Below, one piece after another: positions 1 through 46,134 of a stretch of DNA of 64,000 bases. The translations under genes were made by a program, and so were the position numbers. Numbering within the stretch: the first letter of the stretch is position 1; every line of letters begins with the position of its first letter. The stretch is from Escherichia coli (GTDB taxonomy: Bacteria; Pseudomonadota; Gammaproteobacteria; Enterobacterales; Enterobacteriaceae), in NCBI RefSeq assembly GCF_030013595.1, contig NZ_CP122768.1, one strand, 5' to 3'. Below the pieces are notes generated by a model. That model made no database searches. It was not told the origin of the DNA and saw only the letters and a list, made by a program, of their open reading frames with translations.

Positions 1-678
1 TGAGATTGGATTGCTTTTAGTCAGCCTCTTATAGCCTAAAGTCTTTGAGTGACTAGATGACATATCATGTAAGTTGCTGATAGGTTTCCAGTTTTCCGCT
101 CCTAGGTCTGCATATTGTACTTTTCCTCTTACTCGACTTAACCAGTACCAACCCAGCTTCTCAACGGATTTATACCATGGCACTTTAAAGCCAGCATCAC
201 TGACAATGAGCGGTGTGGTGTTACTCGGTAGAATGCTCGCAAGGTCGGCTAGAAATTGGTCATGAGCTTTCTTTGAACATTGCTCTGAAAGCGGGAACGC
301 TTTCTCATAAAGAGTAACAGAACGACCGTGTAGTGCGACTGAAGCTCGCAATACCATAAGTCGTTTTTGCTCACGAATATCAGACCAGTCAACAAGTACA
401 ATGGGCATCGTATTGCCCGAACAGATAAAGCTAGCATGCCAACGGTATACAGCGAGTCGCTCTTTGTGGAGGTGACGATTACCTAACAATCGGTCGATTC
501 GTTTGATGTTATGTTTTGTTCTCGCTTTGGTTGGCAGGTTACGGCCAAGTTCGGTAAGAGTGAGAGTTTTACAGTCAAGTAATGCGTGGCAAGCCAACGT
601 TAAGCTGTTGAGTCGTTTTAAGTGTAATTCGGGGCAGAATTGGTAAAGAGAGTCGTGTAAAATATCGAGTTCGCACAT
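1..678 (-). CDS. tnp: IS10 transposase, N-terminal ~226 codons (rest lies beyond window start)
   Basis: ATG at 676-678 (minus strand), translation begins MCELDILHDSLYQFCPELHLKRLNSL; frame stays open to position 1; not in the ORF track because it has no in-window stop. Confidence 0.88.
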   Translation of the reverse strand, partial: MCELDILHDSLYQFCPELHLKRLNSLTLACHALLDCKTLTLTELGRNLPTKARTKHNIKRIDRLLGNRHLHKERLAVYRWHASFICSGNTMPIVLVDWSDIREQKRLMVLRASVALHGRSVTLYEKAFPLSEQCSKKAHDQFLADLASILPSNTTPLIVSDAGFKVPWYKSVEKLGWYWLSRVRGKVQYADLGAENWKPISNLHDMSSSHSKTLGYKRLTKSNPIS

Positions 679-739
679 CTTGTTGTCTGATTATTGATTT
701 TTCGCGAAACCATTTGATCATATGACAAGATGTGTATCC
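671..739 (+). ncRNA. IS10 antisense RNA-OUT (placed by offset from the IS10 end)
   Basis: Opposite strand to the tnp start; 9-bp stem ACATCTTGT (675-683) pairs with ACAAGATGT (724-732); corresponds to IS10 bp 115 to 47 from the outside end. Confidence 0.5.
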
Positions 740-745
740 ACCTTA
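711..745 (-). promoter_or_regulatory. IS10 transposase promoter pIN region with Dam methylation site
   Basis: GATC at 716-719 sits at IS10 bp 67-70, where the Dam-regulated -10 of pIN is known to lie; placed by offset, not by promoter scoring. Confidence 0.4.
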
Positions 746-785
746 ACTTAATGATTTTTACCAAAATCATTAGGGGATTCATCAG

Positions 786-3433: not shown

Positions 3434-3478
3434 CCTGTCGGAGGTGCCGGGTGTCCTACAACACCCGGCATTAACATC

Positions 3479-7444: not shown

Positions 7445-8020
7445 ATGAAATCGCTGCGTTTAATGTTATGCGCTATGCCGTTGATGCTGACCGGCTGTTC
7501 CACGATGTCGTCAGTTAACTGGTCTGCCGCTAACCCGTGGAACTGGTTTGGGTCGTCCACCAAAGTGAGCGAGCAGGGCGTTGGTGAATTAACGGCGTCC
7601 ACACCACTGCAAGAACAAGCCATTGCTGATGCGCTTGATGGCGATTATCGCCTGCGCAGCGGAATGAAAACCGCGAACGGCAACGTGGTGCGCTTTTTTG
7701 AAGTGATGAAAGGCGACAACGTGGCGATGGTGATTAACGGTGATCAAGGCACGATCAGCCGCATTGATGTGCTGGATAGCGATATTCCTGCTGACACCGG
7801 TGTTAAAATCGGTACACCGTTTAGCGACCTTTACAGCAAAGCATTTGGCAATTGCCAAAAAGCTGATGGTGATGATAATCGTGCCGTCGAATGTAAAGCC
7901 GAAGGCAGTCAACATATTAGCTACCAGTTCAGCGGGGAATGGAGTGGTCCTGAAGGGTTAATGCCTTCGGACGATACCCTGAAAAACTGGAAAGTCAGTA
8001 AAATTATCTGGCGGCGTTAA
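7445..8020 (+). CDS. yfeY: lipoprotein YfeY
   Basis: 191-aa ORF; signal peptide with lipobox LTGCS. Confidence 0.9.
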   Translation: MKSLRLMLCAMPLMLTGCSTMSSVNWSAANPWNWFGSSTKVSEQGVGELTASTPLQEQAIADALDGDYRLRSGMKTANGNVVRFFEVMKGDNVAMVINGDQGTISRIDVLDSDIPADTGVKIGTPFSDLYSKAFGNCQKADGDDNRAVECKAEGSQHISYQFSGEWSGPEGLMPSDDTLKNWKVSKIIWRR

Positions 8021-8031
8021 TTTGCGTCTGA

Positions 8032-9015
<984 letters not shown>

Positions 9016-9038
9016 TCGTTTCTGATTCGATGATTAAA

Positions 9039-9072
9039 GGCCAGCCAGTATCACAACTGACTGGCCTTTTTA
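9039..9072. terminator. bidirectional intrinsic terminator between convergent yfeX and yfeW
   Basis: GGCCAG(9039-9044)...CTGGCC(9061-9066) stem flanked by A-run and T-run. Confidence 0.6.
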
Positions 9073-10374
9073 TTACTGCTTTAACGCCGCATACACCTGA
9101 TCAACCACCCAACCATAAGTTGCAATCGGCAACTGACCGCTTTCGAACATATTGGGATTCTTTTGTGGATCGGCAACTGGCGAATGTGGCTTGTTGCTTA
9201 ACATCACAATCGCCATATGATTCACCGGATCGATAACGGTCACCGTCCCGGTCCAGCCAGTGTGACCGTAGGTTTGCGGGCTTGCCAGCGTGCCAAACGT
9301 CGGCGTCATGGTGGCATTACCATTCACGCGCCAGCCAAGGCCAAAAGTGGCATCTTCCTTAGAGCTGGTGGTGAACATCTTCACCGTTTCTGCATTGAAC
9401 AGCTGCACATCGCCATAGCCGCCGCCGTTCAGCATCGTTTGCATTAACACCGCAATATCGCCGGTATTGGAAAACAACCCTGCATGCCCGGAAACGCCGC
9501 CCATCGAATAAAAGGCTTTTTCATCGTGCACCTGACCCCAGAGAGTGGAGGTGCGGATATTCGGGAAATGGATCACGCCATCGCGGGTATTGCCGTTGAG
9601 TTCCGTGGCGGCAATTTGTTGCGGTTTAAAGCCTTTCAGTAGCGGATTAAACACCGTATGCGTCAGGCCGAGCGGGCGATAAATCGACTCTTCAACATAG
9701 CGGTCAAGTGGCTGACCGGTAATCGACTCGACGATAAATCCAAGCAGCATATAATCGACATCGCTGTAGATATGCTTGCTGCCGGGCTGATACTCCAGCG
9801 GCGTGCGCTTGATCATCTCCAGCGTCTGGCCTTTATCCTGGGAATATAACGCGCCCGTGACCGCTTTATTCGGGTATTGCGGATCTGCCGGGAAACCGCC
9901 GCTGTGATGCAGCAGGTCAGAAATCCGCAGCGTGTTTTTGCCTTTGATGGTGTCATTTGGACTATCGGCAAATCCCGGAATATATTTCGCAATCCGATCG
10001 TCAGGATGCAGCTTGCCTTCGCTCATCAGCTTTTGCAGCGCGAAGTTAGTGGCGTACATCTTGGTGTTTGAGGCCAGATCATACAGCGTCCCGGTGGTGG
10101 CTTTTACAGGCTGCGCCATTAACGCGCTGCCATCGTACTTTTTCGCCGCGCCCCAGGCTTTGCGATAAACAATCTGATTATCTTTTATAATCAGCAGGTT
10201 TACTCCCGGATAACCGGCATCAACTTGCTGGCTTATCCAGCGATCCATCTGATTAAGCCGTTCGACGTTAAACCCTGCTTTCTCTGGCGAACTTTCTGTC
10301 AGAACAGGGTATTTTGCGGCGCTGACGCTACAACTAACAGCCAGCAGAGAAAGATAGAGCATTGTCCGTTTCAT
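9073..10374 (-). CDS. yfeW: penicillin-binding protein 4B (low-molecular-weight PBP, beta-lactamase fold)
   Basis: About 433 aa from ATG 10372-10374 (MKRTMLYLSLLAVSCSVSA signal); SxxK active-site motif SNTK; directly downstream of murP. Confidence 0.88.
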   Translation of the reverse strand: MKRTMLYLSLLAVSCSVSAAKYPVLTESSPEKAGFNVERLNQMDRWISQQVDAGYPGVNLLIIKDNQIVYRKAWGAAKKYDGSALMAQPVKATTGTLYDLASNTKMYATNFALQKLMSEGKLHPDDRIAKYIPGFADSPNDTIKGKNTLRISDLLHHSGGFPADPQYPNKAVTGALYSQDKGQTLEMIKRTPLEYQPGSKHIYSDVDYMLLGFIVESITGQPLDRYVEESIYRPLGLTHTVFNPLLKGFKPQQIAATELNGNTRDGVIHFPNIRTSTLWGQVHDEKAFYSMGGVSGHAGLFSNTGDIAVLMQTMLNGGGYGDVQLFNAETVKMFTTSSKEDATFGLGWRVNGNATMTPTFGTLASPQTYGHTGWTGTVTVIDPVNHMAIVMLSNKPHSPVADPQKNPNMFESGQLPIATYGWVVDQVYAALKQ

Positions 10375-17547: not shown

Positions 17548-18634
17548 GATTGCCAATATTAAGAAGTCTTTTGGTCGCACCCAGGTGCTGAACGATATCT
17601 CACTGGATATTCCTTCTGGTCAGATGGTCGCATTGCTGGGGCCGTCTGGTTCCGGGAAAACCACGCTGCTGCGGATTATCGCCGGGCTGGAGCATCAAAC
17701 CAGCGGGCATATTCGCTTCCACGGCACCGACGTCAGCCGCCTGCATGCGCGCGATCGTAAAGTTGGTTTCGTGTTCCAGCACTATGCGCTGTTCCGCCAT
17801 ATGACGGTGTTCGACAATATCGCTTTCGGCCTGACGGTGCTGCCGCGTCGCGAGCGCCCGAATGCCGCAGCCATCAAAGCGAAAGTGACAAACTTGCTGG
17901 AGATGGTGCAGCTTGCGCATCTGGCGGATCGTTATCCGGCACAGCTTTCCGGCGGGCAGAAACAGCGCGTGGCGCTGGCGCGTGCGCTGGCTGTAGAACC
18001 GCAAATTCTGCTGCTTGATGAACCGTTTGGCGCGCTGGATGCGCAGGTGCGTAAAGAGCTGCGTCGCTGGTTGCGTCAACTGCATGAAGAACTGAAATTT
18101 ACCAGCGTATTCGTGACCCATGACCAGGAAGAAGCGACCGAAGTAGCCGATCGTGTAGTGGTGATGAGCCAGGGCAATATCGAGCAGGCTGATGCGCCGG
18201 ATCAGGTATGGCGCGAACCAGCGACCCGCTTTGTGCTCGAATTTATGGGCGAAGTGAACCGCCTGCAGGGAACCATTCGCGGCGGGCAGTTCCATGTTGG
18301 CGCACATCGCTGGCCGCTGGGCTATACACCTGCGTATCAGGGGCCGGTGGATCTCTTCCTTCGTCCGTGGGAAGTGGATATCAGCCGCCGTACCAGCCTC
18401 GATTCGCCGCTGCCGGTACAGGTACTGGAAGCCAGCCCGAAAGGCCACTACACCCAATTAGTCGTGCAGCCGCTGGGGTGGTACAACGAAGCGCTGACGG
18501 TCGTGATGCACGGCGACGACGCCCCGCAACGTGGCGAGCGTTTATTCGTTGGTCTGCAACATGCGCGGCTGTATAACGGCGACGAGCGTATTGAAACCCG
18601 CGATGAGGAACTTGCTCTCGCACAAAGCGCCTGA
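17537..18634 (+). CDS. cysA: sulfate/thiosulfate ABC transporter ATP-binding protein
   Basis: 365-aa ORF; Walker [13 protein letters not shown] signature [15 protein letters not shown]; overlaps cysW by 11 nt. Confidence 0.95.
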
Positions 18635-18700
18635 TAGGTTGAGTGAATGTTAAACGCCCGGAGGCGCTTCCCGCGATCCGGGCTTTTTAATGGCAAGGTT

Positions 18701-18750
18701 TGTAACCTGTAGGCCTGATAAGACGCGCAAGCGTCGCATCAGGCAACACC
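18701..18750. repeat. REP (repetitive extragenic palindromic) element
   Basis: GCCTGATAAGACGCG...CGTCGCATCAGGC imperfect palindrome between cysA and cysM. Confidence 0.8.
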
Positions 18751-18767
18751 ACGTATGGACAGAGATC

Positions 18768-19679
18768 GTGAGTACATTAGAACAAACAATTGGCAATACG
18801 CCTCTGGTGAAGTTGCAGCGAATGGGGCCGGATAACGGCAGTGAAGTGTGGTTAAAACTGGAAGGCAATAACCCGGCAGGTTCGGTGAAAGATCGTGCGG
18901 CGCTTTCGATGATCGTCGAGGCGGAAAAGCGCGGGGAAATTAAACCGGGTGACGTGCTGATCGAAGCCACCAGTGGTAACACCGGCATTGCGCTGGCAAT
19001 GATTGCCGCGCTTAAAGGCTATCGCATGAAATTGCTGATGCCCGACAACATGAGCCAGGAACGTCGTGCGGCGATGCTGGCATACGGTGCGGAACTGATT
19101 CTTGTCACCAAAGAGCAGGGCATGGAAGGTGCGCGCGATCTGGCGCTGGAGATGGCGAATCGTGGTGAAGGAAAGCTGCTCGATCAGTTCAATAATCCCG
19201 ATAACCCTTACGCCCATTACACCACTACCGGGCCGGAAATCTGGCAGCAAACTGGCGGGCGCATTACCCATTTTGTCTCCAGCATGGGAACAACCGGCAC
19301 CATCACCGGCGTGTCACGCTTTATGCGCGAACAATCCAAACCGGTGACCATTGTCGGCCTGCAACCGGAAGAGGGCAGCAGCATTCCCGGCATTCGCCGC
19401 TGGCCTGCGGAATATCTGCCGGGGATTTTCAACGCTTCGCTGGTGGATGAGGTGCTGGATATTCATCAGCGCGATGCAGAAAACACCATGCGCGAACTGG
19501 CAGTGCGGGAAGGAATATTCTGTGGCGTCAGCTCCGGCGGCGCGGTTGCCGGAGCACTGCGCGTGGCAAAAGCTAACCCCGGCGCGGTGGTTGTGGCGAT
19601 CATCTGCGATCGCGGCGATCGCTACCTCTCCACCGGCGTGTTTGGGGAAGAACACTTTAGCCAGGGGGCGGGGATTTAA
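18768..19679 (+). CDS. cysM: cysteine synthase B (O-acetylserine sulfhydrylase B)
   Basis: 303 aa from GTG 18768 (MSTLEQTIGNTPLV...); PLP-lysine motif GSVKDRAA. Confidence 0.92.
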   Translation: MSTLEQTIGNTPLVKLQRMGPDNGSEVWLKLEGNNPAGSVKDRAALSMIVEAEKRGEIKPGDVLIEATSGNTGIALAMIAALKGYRMKLLMPDNMSQERRAAMLAYGAELILVTKEQGMEGARDLALEMANRGEGKLLDQFNNPDNPYAHYTTTGPEIWQQTGGRITHFVSSMGTTGTITGVSRFMREQSKPVTIVGLQPEEGSSIPGIRRWPAEYLPGIFNASLVDEVLDIHQRDAENTMRELAVREGIFCGVSSGGAVAGALRVAKANPGAVVVAIICDRGDRYLSTGVFGEEHFSQGAGI

Positions 19680-19681
19680 GA

Positions 19682-20141
<460 letters not shown>

Positions 20142-35906: not shown

Positions 35907-35982
35907 TGGTGGGTCGTGCAGGATTCGAACCTGCGACCAATTGATTAAAAGTCAACTGCTCTACCAACTGAGCTAACGACCC
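35907..35982 (-). tRNA. lysV: tRNA-Lys (anticodon UUU)
   Basis: Reverse complement reads GGGTCGTTAGCTCAGTTGGTAGAGCAGTTGACTTTTAATCAATTGGTCGCAGGTTCGAATCCTGCACGACCCACCA, 76 nt with encoded CCA. Confidence 0.95.
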
Positions 35983-35986
35983 GAAG

Positions 35987-36062
35987 TGGTGGGTGATGAC
36001 GGGATCGAACCGCCGACCCCCTCCTTGTAAGGGAGGTGCTCTCCCAGCTGAGCTAATCACCC
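35987..36062 (-). tRNA. tRNA-Val (anticodon UAC)
   Basis: Reverse complement reads GGGTGATTAGCTCAGCTGGGAGAGCACCTCCCTTACAAGGAGGGGGTCGGCGGTTCGATCCCGTCATCACCCACCA, 76 nt. Confidence 0.95.
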
Positions 36063-36108
36063 ACTTCGGTACTTCACATTTTTACAAGAAATTTAGCTGG
36101 CGAGAAAG

Positions 36109-36184
36109 TGGTGGGTGATGACGGGATCGAACCGCCGACCCCCTCCTTGTAAGGGAGGTGCTCTCCCAGCTGAGCTAATCACCC
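36109..36184 (-). tRNA. tRNA-Val (anticodon UAC), second identical copy
   Basis: Identical 76-nt sequence to 35987-36062, separated by a 46-bp spacer. Confidence 0.95.
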
Positions 36185-38882: not shown

Positions 38883-38958
<76 letters not shown>

Positions 38959-38997
38959 AATTTTGCACCCAACAAATTTGGTACGTAAACGCATCGT

Positions 38998-39073
<76 letters not shown>

Positions 39074-43048: not shown

Positions 43049-44296
<1,248 letters not shown>

Positions 44297-44323
44297 TTGA
44301 ATGAGCGTCGCATCTGGCACTAT

Positions 44324-44412
<89 letters not shown>

Positions 44413-44436
44413 ATTGTGCTCCATTGGCAAATGTGT

Positions 44437-44763
44437 TTAATGGCGGTGTCCATGTCCGCGGCCTTTTCCGCGATGATCGTCACGATCGCGCCAGCCTTCA
44501 CGATAGCCACGCTCATACGCTTTACGCTTATCCCAGCCACGATGGTAGCCATTATCATGACGCCACCAGCGGTTCTTACGCCATTCATAATTGCGATGCC
44601 AGTAGTCACGGTCGCGCCAGTGACCACCGTCCCAGTAATTACCGTAATGATCGCGATCGCCAATTTGTAATTTGATTGATGGCAGTAGGGTGATTTCACC
44701 TGCGTTTGCCGCAAGCGGGGTAAATGCCATCAGGGCGGCCGCCAGAAACAGTGACCTGAACAT
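44437..44763 (-). CDS. ypeC: secreted low-complexity protein YpeC
   Basis: 108-aa ORF; signal peptide [21 protein letters not shown]; mature part rich in R/D/H/W/Y repeats ending [10 protein letters not shown]. Confidence 0.85.
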
Positions 44764-44877
44764 TGTTATTCTCCTTCACGATCGAAGCCGTCAGCGGCCT
44801 GTTAACGCAATATTACGGGGAGGTAAAGCCCCGTATCATCGCCATAACTCTTAAATCATAAAGGAGAGCATTTTTTG

Positions 44878-46134
44878 CTAAACGTTATCGTGGGGTGGCT
44901 GTTGCTTCGGACGATTGACCATCATCATCGGCTTACCTGCTAATAACAGCCATGCCGGAAGCATGACGATACAGAGCAGCGGTAGCAATGTGGTATTGGG
45001 TACAACGACTGCCGCCATAAAAAGACTTAACCAGCCATCGCGTGTTACCACCAGCACGATGCCGAGAATAGCGCAGGAAACGGTTATTGCCGCTGGAACG
45101 GCGGGAACGTGCTCATGCAGCATCAACCCTAATGCCACGCCGACAAACACTGCCGGGAAGATTCGCCCACCGCGAAAGCCACTGGCGGCAGCAACGACCA
45201 GGGCGGCAAGTTTAATTACCGCCAGCAAAAAGTAATCGCTGGTGCTGAAAGCCTGATTTGCCACCATCTGCTGCATCTCATCCAGCCCTTTAAACAGCGA
45301 AACTGGTCCACCAATAACCCCCAGAATACCGAGAATAAATCCGCCAATACCCAGCACGAGCACCGGATTTTTCATTTGATGCATCATCGCGTGCAACCGT
45401 GGTAAGCACCATACGGCGACCATCCCTGCTGCGATGGCAATCGCCGCGACAATTGCACCGCTGAGAATATCGGTCATTTCCATTTGTCCGTAATGCGCAA
45501 TGGGCAGTGAAAAATGGGGATGGAAAAATAATCCGGTAGTAAGTGCACCAGCTGCTGCCGCCATTAACGGCGCAAAAAGACGATCCCATAGCGGAACTTC
45601 ACTACTACCATTTAAGGTTTGCGAAAATATCAACGCCGCCGCAACAGGTGTGCCAAACAGCGCGCCGATGGTTCCGGCAGAGGCTAAAATAGTCCACTCC
45701 ATTCGGTTGACGCGCGGTAACAGACGAGCGCCAATGGCAACCGCAAGGGCGATATTGACGGTCATGATCGGATGTTCTGGCCCCAGGCTGACGCCACCAG
45801 CAAGACCAAGAATTAATGCTACGATAAGTCCTGGTAGCGCAGAGGGCGGAACTGGTGCGCCGATCAGCGGTTCACAGGCGGGGTCTGGTCCGGCATGACC
45901 CTGGCTGAAACGGATAACCAACCCCACCGCAATACCTGTTAGCGTTAATATGGCGATGATCCAGAAAGGTGAATCCTGAGCTATCCCCAGAGTTCCCGGC
46001 AGTCGTTGCCAGAGCAAATTCTGTAATACCGAGGCGATTTTCATCACCACAATCAGAATAAGACTGGACGCAATCCCAATTGCCACGGCGGGGAGCGATA
46101 ATAACAACATGGTTCTGGCTCGCGGATGGAGCAT
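44878..46134 (-). CDS. yfeO: putative ion channel/transporter YfeO (ClC-like)
   Basis: 418-aa polytopic ORF. Confidence 0.85.

What the first reader, a model, noticed from the sequence alone, without database searches (positions are those of the whole stretch)
18701..18750. REP elements at cysA/cysM and mntH/ypeC junctions
Canonical REP palindromes (GCCTGATAAGACGCG...CGTCGCATCAGGC type) occur at 18701-18750 and as a two-unit array at 44325-44412. They are ordinary for E. coli but explain several spurious ORFs in the track, such as 44355-44714.
Basis: partly seen in the sequence, partly recalled or inferred. Interest (0 to 1): 0.1.

Follow-up and report, generated by a model that had tools for sequence, protein, structure and literature searches.

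The report
Ordinary E. coli REP elements, confirmed

Summary
Observation confirmed. The window is E. coli chromosome. It holds exactly three GTAG-headed REP palindromes.

- A solitary z2-type REP lies at 18709-18745, between cysA and cysM. It corresponds to K-12 REP175.
- A head-to-head pair lies between the convergent genes mntH and ypeC: a y-type REP at 44324-44358 and a z2-type REP at 44377-44413, joined by an 18-nt linker. This is a BIME-2-type unit.
- A half-REP remnant at 44304-44319 makes the array about 1.5 units with a 94-nt period.

None of these is expected by chance. Both sites are nearly fixed among 5,426 complete E. coli genomes, but 17 genomes have lost exactly one 94-nt unit at mntH/ypeC.

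The likely role is inferred from the literature and was not tested here: RNA hairpins in 3' UTRs or inside an operon that block 3'-exonucleases and partly attenuate read-through, and DNA substrates of the TnpA-REP (RAYT) enzyme.

The claim about spurious ORFs is mostly wrong. ORF 44355-44714 lies 77% inside ypeC, out of frame, and it persists (121 aa) in a strain that lacks the REPs. A genuine REP artefact is the 26-codon upstream extension of the mechanical cysM ORF.

Novelty: already known. Interest is very low.

The parts
18709..18745 (+). Solitary z2-type REP, 37 nt. Layout: GTAG head 18709-18712; stem arms 18713-18726 and 18731-18744 with the AA/GC bulge; loop GCAA. It lies 74 nt after the cysA stop and 22 nt before the cysM GTG start.
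   Evidence: Sequence. 0 mismatches to the z2 pattern, none expected by chance. Inverted repeat I2. RNA hairpin -22.5 kcal/mol, z -4.56. Coincides within 1 nt with K-12 REP175 at 2539608-2539643.
18656..18688 (+). Terminator-like G+C-rich hairpin (18656-18683) followed by T5 (18684-18688), just downstream of the cysA stop and upstream of the REP. It is part of the same intergenic architecture but is not a REP.
   Evidence: Inverted repeat I3. Fold -20.4 kcal/mol, z -2.56. Not reported by the simple terminator scan (0 terminator-like sites), probably because the 14-nt gap between the outer arms exceeds its 3-8 nt loop limit.
44304..44319 (.). Half-REP remnant (AGCGTCGCATCTGGCA). It is a direct repeat, with 1 mismatch, of the 3' arm of the z2 REP at 44398-44413, 94 nt away. 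It marks the array as about 1.5 BIME-2 units.
   Evidence: blastn-short hit to z2 positions 5-15. Alignment A1 shows the deletion allele joining exactly these two repeats.
44324..44358 (-). y-type REP, 35 nt. Its GTAG head is on the minus strand, so CTAC sits at 44355-44358 on the plus strand. It carries a compensatory C-G to G-C flip relative to the consensus.
   Evidence: Pattern match with 2 mismatches, none expected by chance. Inverted repeat I2. Hairpin -21.3 kcal/mol, z -3.56. GTAG-anchored scan.
44359..44376 (.). 18-nt head-to-head linker GCGTTAAAGAGCCGGTTT between the two REP heads (short S-type position). It is too short to be the BIME-1 L linker that carries the IHF site.
   Evidence: Sequence. 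The 42-nt head-linker-head stretch is single copy per genome and present in 5372 of 5426 genomes. For comparison, the K-12 BIME-1 L linkers are about 35 nt.
44377..44413 (+). z2-type REP, 37 nt, with its GTAG head at 44377-44380. One difference from K-12 (GTAGGTCTG instead of GTAGGCCTG) gives a G-U pair on the plus-strand RNA. It lies 23 nt from the ypeC stop codon (44437-44439).
   Evidence: Pattern match with 1 mismatch. Comparison with K-12. Hairpins -18.4 kcal/mol on the plus strand and -16.1 on the minus strand, z about -4.7.

Best explanation
These are three copies of the E. coli REP (repetitive extragenic palindrome, or palindromic unit) family. One is a solitary z2 REP inside the cysPUWAM operon, between cysA and cysM. 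The other two form a y-z2 head-to-head pair of BIME-2 type, plus a half unit, between the convergent genes mntH and ypeC.

Shown here: sequence identity to the family, the GTAG head, the bulged imperfect palindrome, extragenic position, stable hairpins on both strands, copies elsewhere in E. coli genomes, near-fixation at both sites, and gain or loss of whole units between strains.

Inferred from published work on other REPs and not tested here:
- When transcribed, the hairpins sit in the 3' UTRs of mntH and ypeC and in the cysA-cysM spacer.
- There they would act as barriers to 3'-to-5' exonucleases, stabilising the upstream message.
- They would also act as partial, partly Rho-dependent attenuators of read-through. 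At cysA/cysM this would lower cysM relative to cysPUWA, working together with the hairpin plus U5 just upstream. At mntH/ypeC it would act in both directions.
- As single-stranded DNA they are substrates of the domesticated Y1 transposase TnpA-REP (RAYT), which recognises GTAG plus the bulged stem. Unit-number changes arise through that enzyme or through slippage or recombination between the repeated arms.
For: Identity:
- z2 matches with 0 and 1 mismatches, and a y match with 2 mismatches that compensate each other. None is expected in shuffles.
- A consensus-free GTAG-plus-palindrome scan finds only these three elements.
- The AA/GC bulge and GTAG head fit the published definition, and the lengths of 37, 35 and 37 nt fit the published z2 (37 nt) and y (35 nt) sizes (PMC8266576; PMC3333891).

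Hairpins: -16 to -22.5 kcal/mol, z -3.6 to -4.7.

Extragenic position between annotated genes.

Dispersed copies: a 281-nt query gives a median of 6 and up to 21 places per genome. The extra places cover only the REP, for example H70 on a plasmid. H110 is a 38-nt exact copy of the y REP elsewhere in a chromosome.

Already catalogued: REP175 'Tandem cysA cysM'. K-12 has the same mntH/ypeC pair.

BIME-2 behaviour:
- y plus z2 with a short linker (definition).
- 17 genomes lack exactly one 94-nt unit.

Function, by analogy: REP325 acts as both terminator and stabiliser. REPs in tandem gene pairs bias expression upstream, and REPs between convergent genes go with higher expression of both (bioRxiv 10.64898/2026.03.23.713779).

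No promoter-like site lies in the cysA-cysM spacer, so cysM depends on read-through.
Against: - No expression, 3'-end or half-life data for these two loci were examined, so the local function is entirely by analogy.
- The cited study stresses that REP effects depend on context and that terminal REPs do not lengthen half-lives in general.
- None of the REPs is followed by a U-run, so they are not classical intrinsic terminators.
- Near-fixation may simply reflect common descent rather than selection.
- BIME-2 elements are described as multi-copy tandem arrays, whereas this one has only about 1.5 units.
- The head-linker-head unit is single copy per genome, so nothing suggests it has recently moved as a unit.
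- The RAYT gene is not in the window, and the source genome as a whole was not available.
Confidence: 0.88

Rival explanations
1. The elements are REPs but have no local function. On this view they are neutral or selfish remnants of non-autonomous mobile DNA (REP/REPIN populations maintained by RAYT) that persist in intergenic DNA because they do no harm.
For: REP sites in this same 64-kb region come and go between strains. K-12's REP174 and REP176 are absent from the window. The K-12-type filled junction at yfeX/yfeW is found in only 1403 of 5426 genomes. 17 genomes have lost the mntH/ypeC unit and still have intact flanking genes. The literature treats REPs as possible mobile elements.
Against: The two flagged sites are nearly fixed: 5420 and 5372 of 5426 genomes. 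The stems keep pairing through a compensatory change and a G-U change. Published genome-wide data link REPs to expression bias. None of this is decisive, and the two views do not exclude each other.
Confidence: 0.3
2. The palindromes are ordinary Rho-independent transcription terminators of cysA, mntH and ypeC rather than members of a repeat family.
For: They are stable G+C-rich hairpins placed just after stop codons. About 40% of REPs between convergent genes fall inside predicted bidirectional terminators.
Against: No U-run follows any of the three REP hairpins, and the terminator scan finds none. cysM has no promoter-like site of its own, so transcription must pass the REP. The sequences match a dispersed repeat family rather than being locus-specific. 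The terminator-like hairpin with T5 at 18656-18688 is a separate element.
Confidence: 0.05
3. The ORFs that cross the REPs encode real small proteins, and the palindromes are coding sequence. The ORFs in question are 44355-44714, 18687-18752, and the 5' extension of cysM from 18690.
For: The REPs are open in two of three frames on the GTAG strand. TAG, TGA and TAA all fall in one frame, so ORFs run through them.
Against: ORF 44355-44714 lies mostly inside ypeC out of frame, and its tail changes completely in the REP-less allele. RefSeq annotates none of these ORFs and starts cysM at the GTG equal to 18768. The same peptide-like translation (PDATL.RLIRPT) appears at both unrelated loci, as expected from a DNA repeat.
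Confidence: 0.01

Closest known systems
E. coli K-12 REP175 (cysA/cysM), a solitary z2 REP / palindromic unit
   Same: Same locus. The intergenic length is the same at 133 nt. The position is the same to within 1 nt: 2539608-2539643 maps to window 18708-18743. Type and orientation are the same, and the element is listed as 'Tandem cysA cysM'.
   Different: Nothing of substance. The surrounding 281 nt is 98.6% identical to K-12.
BIME-2 family (y + z2 REPs, short S linker; Bachellier/Gilson classification as summarised in PMC3333891)
   Same: A y iREP and a z2 REP lie head-to-head with a short 18-nt linker. The tail-to-tail side continues into a further (half) z2. The number of units differs between strains by exactly one 94-nt unit.
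   Different: There are only about 1.5 units rather than a multi-copy tandem array. The linker sequence is unique to this locus. Gyrase binding, reported for BIME-2, was not tested.
REP325 (yjdM-yjdN) and other functionally studied REPs (malE-malF and hisJ-hisQ, from my own knowledge)
   Same: Hairpins of the same family sit in a tandem operon spacer or a 3' UTR, so the same dual role as attenuator and mRNA stabiliser is expected.
   Different: REP325 has 12 hairpins, whereas these sites have 1 and 2.5. No experiment addresses these two sites.
BIME-1 (y + z1 with long L linker carrying an IHF site), e.g. K-12 REP174 and REP176
   Same: Same REP superfamily and the same head-to-head geometry.
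   Different: The window's pair uses z2 rather than z1, and its linker is 18 nt rather than about 35 nt. The two K-12 BIME-1 elements of this region are absent from the window.
REPIN (two inverted REPs that replicate as one unit; Bertels and Rainey)
   Same: Two REPs in inverted orientation are separated by a short spacer (concept).
   Different: The doublet with its spacer occurs once per genome, so there is no sign that it replicates as a unit.

Membership tests
E. coli REP / palindromic unit (y, z1, z2) | Imperfect palindrome of 30-40 nt able to form a stem-loop | tested here: met
   Arms of 14 nt at 86% complementarity at all three sites. Hairpins of -16 to -22.5 kcal/mol, z -3.6 to -4.7. 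Lengths 37, 35 and 37 nt.
E. coli REP / palindromic unit (y, z1, z2) | Conserved GTAG tetranucleotide directly 5' of the stem foot | tested here: met
   GTAG at 18709-18712 (+), at 44377-44380 (+), and as CTAC at 44355-44358, which is GTAG on the minus strand. Definition in PMC8266576 and PMC3333891.
E. coli REP / palindromic unit (y, z1, z2) | Stem interrupted by the conserved AA/GC mismatch (bulge) | tested here: met
   GAT-AA-GACGC...GCGTC-GC-ATC in both z2 copies and GAT-AA-GGCG...CGCC-GC-ATC in the y copy. These positions are unpaired in the folds. Feature as described.
E. coli REP / palindromic unit (y, z1, z2) | Sequence match to a family consensus | tested here: met
   z2: 0 and 1 mismatches. 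y: 2 mismatches forming a compensatory pair. 0.00 matches expected by chance. blastn-short E-values of 9e-14, 6e-9 and 5e-9. The consensus strings were written from memory but agree with K-12 REPs read.
E. coli REP / palindromic unit (y, z1, z2) | Extragenic location, at 3' ends of genes or within operons | tested here: met
   Between the cysA stop at 18634 and the cysM start at 18768, and between the mntH stop at 44296 and the ypeC stop at 44437.
E. coli REP / palindromic unit (y, z1, z2) | Many dispersed copies in the same genome | tested here: met
   Tested in related complete genomes, not in the source genome. Even with 28-nt exact seeds there is a median of 6 and up to 21 places per genome, and the extra places cover the REP only. 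The literature gives about 600 copies in K-12.
E. coli REP / palindromic unit (y, z1, z2) | Cognate TnpA-REP (RAYT) gene in the genome, and cleavage by it | not testable with these tools
   The gene map of the matching region shows no RAYT, and the rest of the source genome is not available. The TGCC|TGAT and CC|TAC cleavage motifs described are present in the sequence.
BIME-2 | Composed of y and z2 REPs in inverse orientation | tested here: met
   y at 44324-44358 (minus-strand head) and z2 at 44377-44413 (plus-strand head), head-to-head. Definition.
BIME-2 | Short head-to-head linker (S), not the long L linker with an IHF site | tested here: met
   The linker is 18 nt, against about 35 nt for L in K-12 REP174 and REP176. 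Whether it matches a named S variant was not tested; BIME-2 linkers are said to vary in length and sequence.
BIME-2 | Multiple tandem copies, with copy number varying between strains | tested here: inconclusive
   Only about 1.5 units are present (remnant at 44304-44319). However, 17 of 5426 genomes differ by exactly one 94-nt unit. No expanded allele appeared among the sampled rows.
BIME-2 | Binding and cleavage by DNA gyrase | not testable with these tools
   Published for BIME-2 in general (papers listed). Not examined for this locus.
BIME-1 | y plus z1 separated by the conserved long L linker | tested here: not met
   The partner is z2 (36 of 36 aligned against only 14 nt for z1) and the linker is 18 nt.
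Rho-independent terminator | G+C-rich hairpin immediately followed by a U-run | tested here: not met
   No terminator-like site was found at either locus, and no T-run follows any REP. The separate hairpin at 18656-18683 does have a T5.
REPIN | The inverted REP doublet with its spacer is itself the repeated unit | tested here: not met
   The 42-nt head-linker-head stretch has a median of 1 and a maximum of 2 places per genome.

The most novel reading that the evidence does not exclude
The unit-sized indels bounded by direct repeats may be footprints of the still-unresolved mechanism by which REP/BIME units are gained and lost: TnpA-REP strand transfer versus slippage at hairpins. Two cases were seen. 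One is the 94-nt loss at mntH/ypeC between two copies of AGCGTCGCATC(T/A)GGCA. The other, in K-12, is a BIME-1 at yfeX/yfeW flanked by a duplication of about 27-35 nt of the resident terminator hairpin, which is single-copy in the window. The natural REP-plus and REP-minus alleles would also allow a clean test of what a REP does to convergent gene expression.
Probability: 0.1. Interest if true: 0.35.

Novelty: already known. Interest (0 to 1): 0.05.

Why it matters
It matters little beyond annotation hygiene.

- REPs should be masked before ORF calling. They are open in two of three frames on the GTAG strand, and here they lengthen the mechanical cysM ORF by 26 codons and supply tails to antisense or out-of-frame ORFs.
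- They also mark likely points of differential expression: cysPUWA versus cysM, and the 3' ends of mntH and ypeC.
- The strain-to-strain presence or absence of REP units in this region fits the published view that REPs are a source of regulatory and structural polymorphism. It adds nothing new in kind.

Tried and rejected
- A fuzzy-regex REP scan timed out. It was replaced by blastn-short and a GTAG-anchored palindrome scan.
- The served copy of NC_000913.3 shows no repeat_region features in these gaps, so REP names could not be read from the record. REP175 came from a paper supplement instead.
- The K-12 name of the mntH/ypeC element was not found. REP172 and REP173 are absent from the stored, truncated supplement.
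- Rfam at gathering thresholds gives only RNA-OUT and tRNAs, with nothing on the REPs.
- The promoter and terminator scans found nothing at either locus.
- A 110-nt junction query could not count REP-less alleles, because the tool joins split pieces. A 42-nt junction query at E <= 1e-8 did count them.
- A search for the 2015 paper on REPs within 15 nt of stop codons (ribosome stalling and tmRNA) did not retrieve it. From memory of that work, the mechanism is unlikely here: the full REP stems begin 78 nt (cysA), 28 nt (mntH) and 24 nt (ypeC) from the stop codons.
- The chance-palindrome, intrinsic-terminator, coding-sequence, BIME-1 and REPIN readings were considered and rejected (see rival explanations and the membership table).

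Full report
**Where the window comes from.** The stretches 18001-19500 and 43800-45000 match essentially all 5,426 complete E. coli genomes at 95-100% identity. The annotated features under them are cysA/cysM and mntH/ypeC/yfeO. The gene map of a near-identical genome (NZ_CM149870.1) runs eutBCLKR, hemF, amiA... cysPTWAM, yfeK, pdxK, crr-ptsIH, cysK ... mntH, ypeC, yfeO, glk.

- At 18709-18745 the plus strand reads GTAG-GCCTGAT-AA-GACGC-GCAA-GCGTC-GC-ATCAGGC-A.
- At 44324-44358 it reads T-GGCGGAT-GC-GGCG-TAAA-CGCC-TT-ATCCGCC-CTAC. After an 18-nt linker (GCGTTAAAGAGCCGGTTT), positions 44377-44413 read GTAG-GTCTGAT-AA-GACGC-ACTA-GCGTC-GC-ATCAGGC-A.
- Pattern searches give 0 and 1 mismatches to a z2-type REP and 2 mismatches to a y-type REP. 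There were 0.00 matches in 100 dinucleotide-preserving shuffles.
- The two y mismatches are the two sides of one base pair, C-G flipped to G-C, so the palindrome is kept.
- blastn-short with the y, z1 and z2 consensus sequences finds only these three full-length hits in the 64 kb.
- A search that uses no consensus at all (GTAG followed within 0-2 nt by an imperfect palindrome of at least 9 pairs) returns exactly the same three elements.
- Each folds into a stable hairpin on either strand: -16.1 to -22.5 kcal/mol, z -3.6 to -4.7.

**Membership in the REP family.** Published descriptions define E. coli REPs as follows. They are imperfect palindromes of 30-40 nt preceded by GTAG. There are three types: y (35 nt), z1 (29 nt) and z2 (37 nt). 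The stem is interrupted by a conserved AA/GC mismatch. K-12 has about 600 copies, mostly intergenic, of which 84 are solitary and the rest are paired as BIMEs (PMC8266576; PMC3333891). All sequence-level features are met here; the membership table gives the details. Copies elsewhere are visible even with megablast. A 281-nt query around the cysA/cysM REP gives a median of 6 and up to 21 places per genome, and the extra places cover only the REP, for example a plasmid hit to query positions 149-183. A 38-nt exact copy of the y REP lies elsewhere in another chromosome (H110).

**Already catalogued.**
- K-12 carries the same mntH/ypeC pair, differing by one base in the z2 stem.
- The supplement of a 2026 REP study lists 'REP175, Tandem, 2539643-2539608, cysA, cysM'. 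This maps to window 18708-18743 using the K-12 cysM coordinates.

**Anatomy of the cysA/cysM site.**
- cysA ends at 18634.
- A G+C-rich hairpin at 18656-18683 is followed by T5 at 18684-18688 (-20.4 kcal/mol, z -2.56).
- The solitary z2 REP follows at 18709-18745.
- cysM starts at the GTG at 18768, as RefSeq annotates in a genome whose 281 nt here are identical.
- No sigma-70-like promoter is found in the spacer. cysM expression therefore presumably depends on read-through of both hairpins. This is an inference.

**Anatomy of the mntH/ypeC site.**
- mntH ends at 44296 and ypeC (minus strand) ends at 44437.
- The two REPs face each other head-to-head. With y plus z2 and a short linker, this is the BIME-2 composition (definition). 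It is not BIME-1, which has z1 and a long L linker, as seen in K-12 REP174 and REP176.
- Upstream, 44304-44319 (AGCGTCGCATCTGGCA) repeats the 3' arm of the z2 REP (44398-44413) with one mismatch, 94 nt away.
- In the mntH mRNA the remnant can pair with the 5' arm of the y REP as an alternative hairpin starting 8 nt after the stop codon (minimum-energy fold).

**Population picture.**
- The cysA/cysM spacer is covered at 80% or more in 5420 of 5426 genomes.
- The 42-nt head-linker-head stretch of the mntH/ypeC pair is present in 5372 of 5426 genomes and is single copy per genome. The pair is old and is not replicating as a REPIN-like unit.
- Strain 64 has a 46-nt spacer instead of 140 nt. The alignment shows a precise loss of the 94 nt between the two direct repeats.
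- A junction-specific query finds this allele in 17 genomes.
- This is the unit-number variation described for BIME-2. From my own memory, Bachellier et al. 1997 in Genetics describes the same.
- The junction keeps the right-hand copy's base at the one position where the two repeats differ. Taking the window or K-12 allele as parent, the crossover therefore lies within AGCGTCGCATC, to the left of that position. This is compatible with slippage or recombination. It does not point specifically to the TGCC|TGAT TnpA-REP cleavage site.

**How it most likely works.**
- *Shown:* these are REPs that form strong hairpins on both strands at the 3' ends of genes and inside an operon.
- *Inferred from published work:* REP hairpins protect upstream mRNA from 3' exonucleases and cause partial, partly Rho-dependent attenuation. 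REP325 does both. REP-containing tandem gene pairs show upstream-biased expression, and convergent pairs with REPs show higher expression of both genes. All of this comes with large context dependence and no general effect on half-life (bioRxiv 10.64898/2026.03.23.713779).
- The two flagged sites are one example of each configuration.
- As DNA they carry everything TnpA-REP is reported to need: the GTAG head, the bulge and the CT cleavage motifs.
- None of the REPs has a U-run, so they are not classical intrinsic terminators.

**The spurious-ORF claim.**
- ORF 44355-44714 is on the minus strand (119 aa, TTG start). 278 of its 360 nt lie inside ypeC in another frame.
- Only its last 59 nt cross the z2 REP and the linker. 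This stretch translates to MPDATLVRLIRPT, which is the REP read as protein. The ORF stops at the TAG of the y-REP GTAG head.
- In REP-less strain 64 the same ORF persists at 121 aa and simply runs on into the mntH 3' end. The REPs do not explain it; the composition of ypeC does, since ypeC carries four overlapping ORFs of at least 83 aa.
- REP-related artefacts do exist at the other site. The mechanical cysM ORF starts at the ATG at 18690 and reads through the REP (MARFVTCRPDKTRKRRIRQHHVWTEIV...), adding 26 codons. A 21-aa ORF (MVLPDATLARLIRPT...) and the tail of a 112-aa antisense ORF also cross the REP.
- The reason can be read from the sequence: the TAG, TGA and TAA of GTAGGCCTGATAAG all fall in one frame, which leaves two frames open.

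**Other REP sites in the region.** For K-12 the same supplement lists REP174 (cysM/yfeS), REP176 (yfeW/yfeX) and REP177 (eutK/eutR).
- The window keeps the REP177 equivalent, a short non-canonical palindrome at 3444-3469 that is identical to K-12.
- It lacks REP174 together with yfeS. The cysM and yfeK stop codons are 2 nt apart.
- It lacks REP176. A single terminator hairpin fills the yfeX/pbp4b gap.
- The K-12-type filled junction at yfeX/yfeW occurs in 1403 of 5426 genomes. The window-type empty gap occurs in at least 600.

**Verdict.** The side claim about ORF 44355-44714 is not supported. The elements are known and catalogued, so interest is very low.

Noticed in passing
window 1-785: The window begins inside an IS10 copy. 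The exact 39-nt IS10 outside end lies at 747-785 on the minus strand, and Rfam RNA-OUT lies at 671-740 (98.8 bits). The eutB reading frame resumes only at 792, so eutB appears to be interrupted by the insertion. The closest genome has an intact eutB here.
   Followed up: partly
window 18656-18688: A terminator-like hairpin (7+3 G+C-rich pairs) followed by T5 sits between the cysA stop and the REP, inside what is regarded as the cysPUWAM operon. The simple terminator scan reported no site here, probably because the 14-nt gap between the outer arms exceeds its 3-8 nt loop limit.
   Followed up: partly
window 44304-44319, and locus L004/L011 (strain 64): A half-REP remnant forms a 94-nt-period direct repeat with the z2 3' arm. 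17 of 5426 genomes have a precise 94-nt deletion between the two copies, which removes both full REPs.
   Followed up: yes
window 44305-44338: In the minimum-energy fold of the mntH 3' UTR, the half-REP remnant pairs with the 5' arm of the y REP. This gives an alternative hairpin that starts 8 nt after the mntH stop codon and competes with the y-REP hairpin.
   Followed up: no
window 3444-3469: A short perfect palindrome, TGCCGGGTGT-CCTACA-ACACCCGGCA, lies between eutK and eutR, 10 nt before the eutR ATG (3480). It is identical in K-12, where it is listed as REP177. It has no GTAG at its foot (CTAC is in the loop) and does not match y, z1 or z2.
   Followed up: partly
window 19677-19684: The cysM stop and the convergent yfeK stop are only 2 nt apart. 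K-12 has yfeS plus a z1-L-y BIME-1 (REP174) after cysM, and both are absent from the window.
   Followed up: partly
window 9016-9075; L012 95-360 (K-12): The yfeX/pbp4b gap is 57 nt and holds one bidirectional terminator hairpin. K-12 has 239 nt with a y-L-z1 BIME-1 (REP176) flanked by two copies of that hairpin (a direct duplication of about 27-35 nt). The K-12-type junction is in 1403 of 5426 genomes and the window-type empty gap in at least 600.
   Followed up: partly
window 44416-44763: The ypeC gene (108 aa, rich in R/D/H/W/G repeats) is overlapped by three other ORFs of 83-119 aa in other frames on both strands. This is the real source of the spurious ORFs at this site.
   Followed up: partly
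window 35907-36184 and 38883-39073: The tRNA gene copy number differs between strains. The window has Lys-Val-Val and two tRNA-Ala(GGC) genes, while the near-identical genome NZ_CM149870.1 is annotated with only one tRNA-Ala here. This fits the 186-nt offset between the two alignments.
   Followed up: no
L010 7729-8187 (NZ_CM149870.1), equivalent to the window's yfeY-yfeX gap around 8020-8090: The closest relative carries an IS200/IS605-family tnpA between yfeY and yfeX. The window does not.
   Followed up: no
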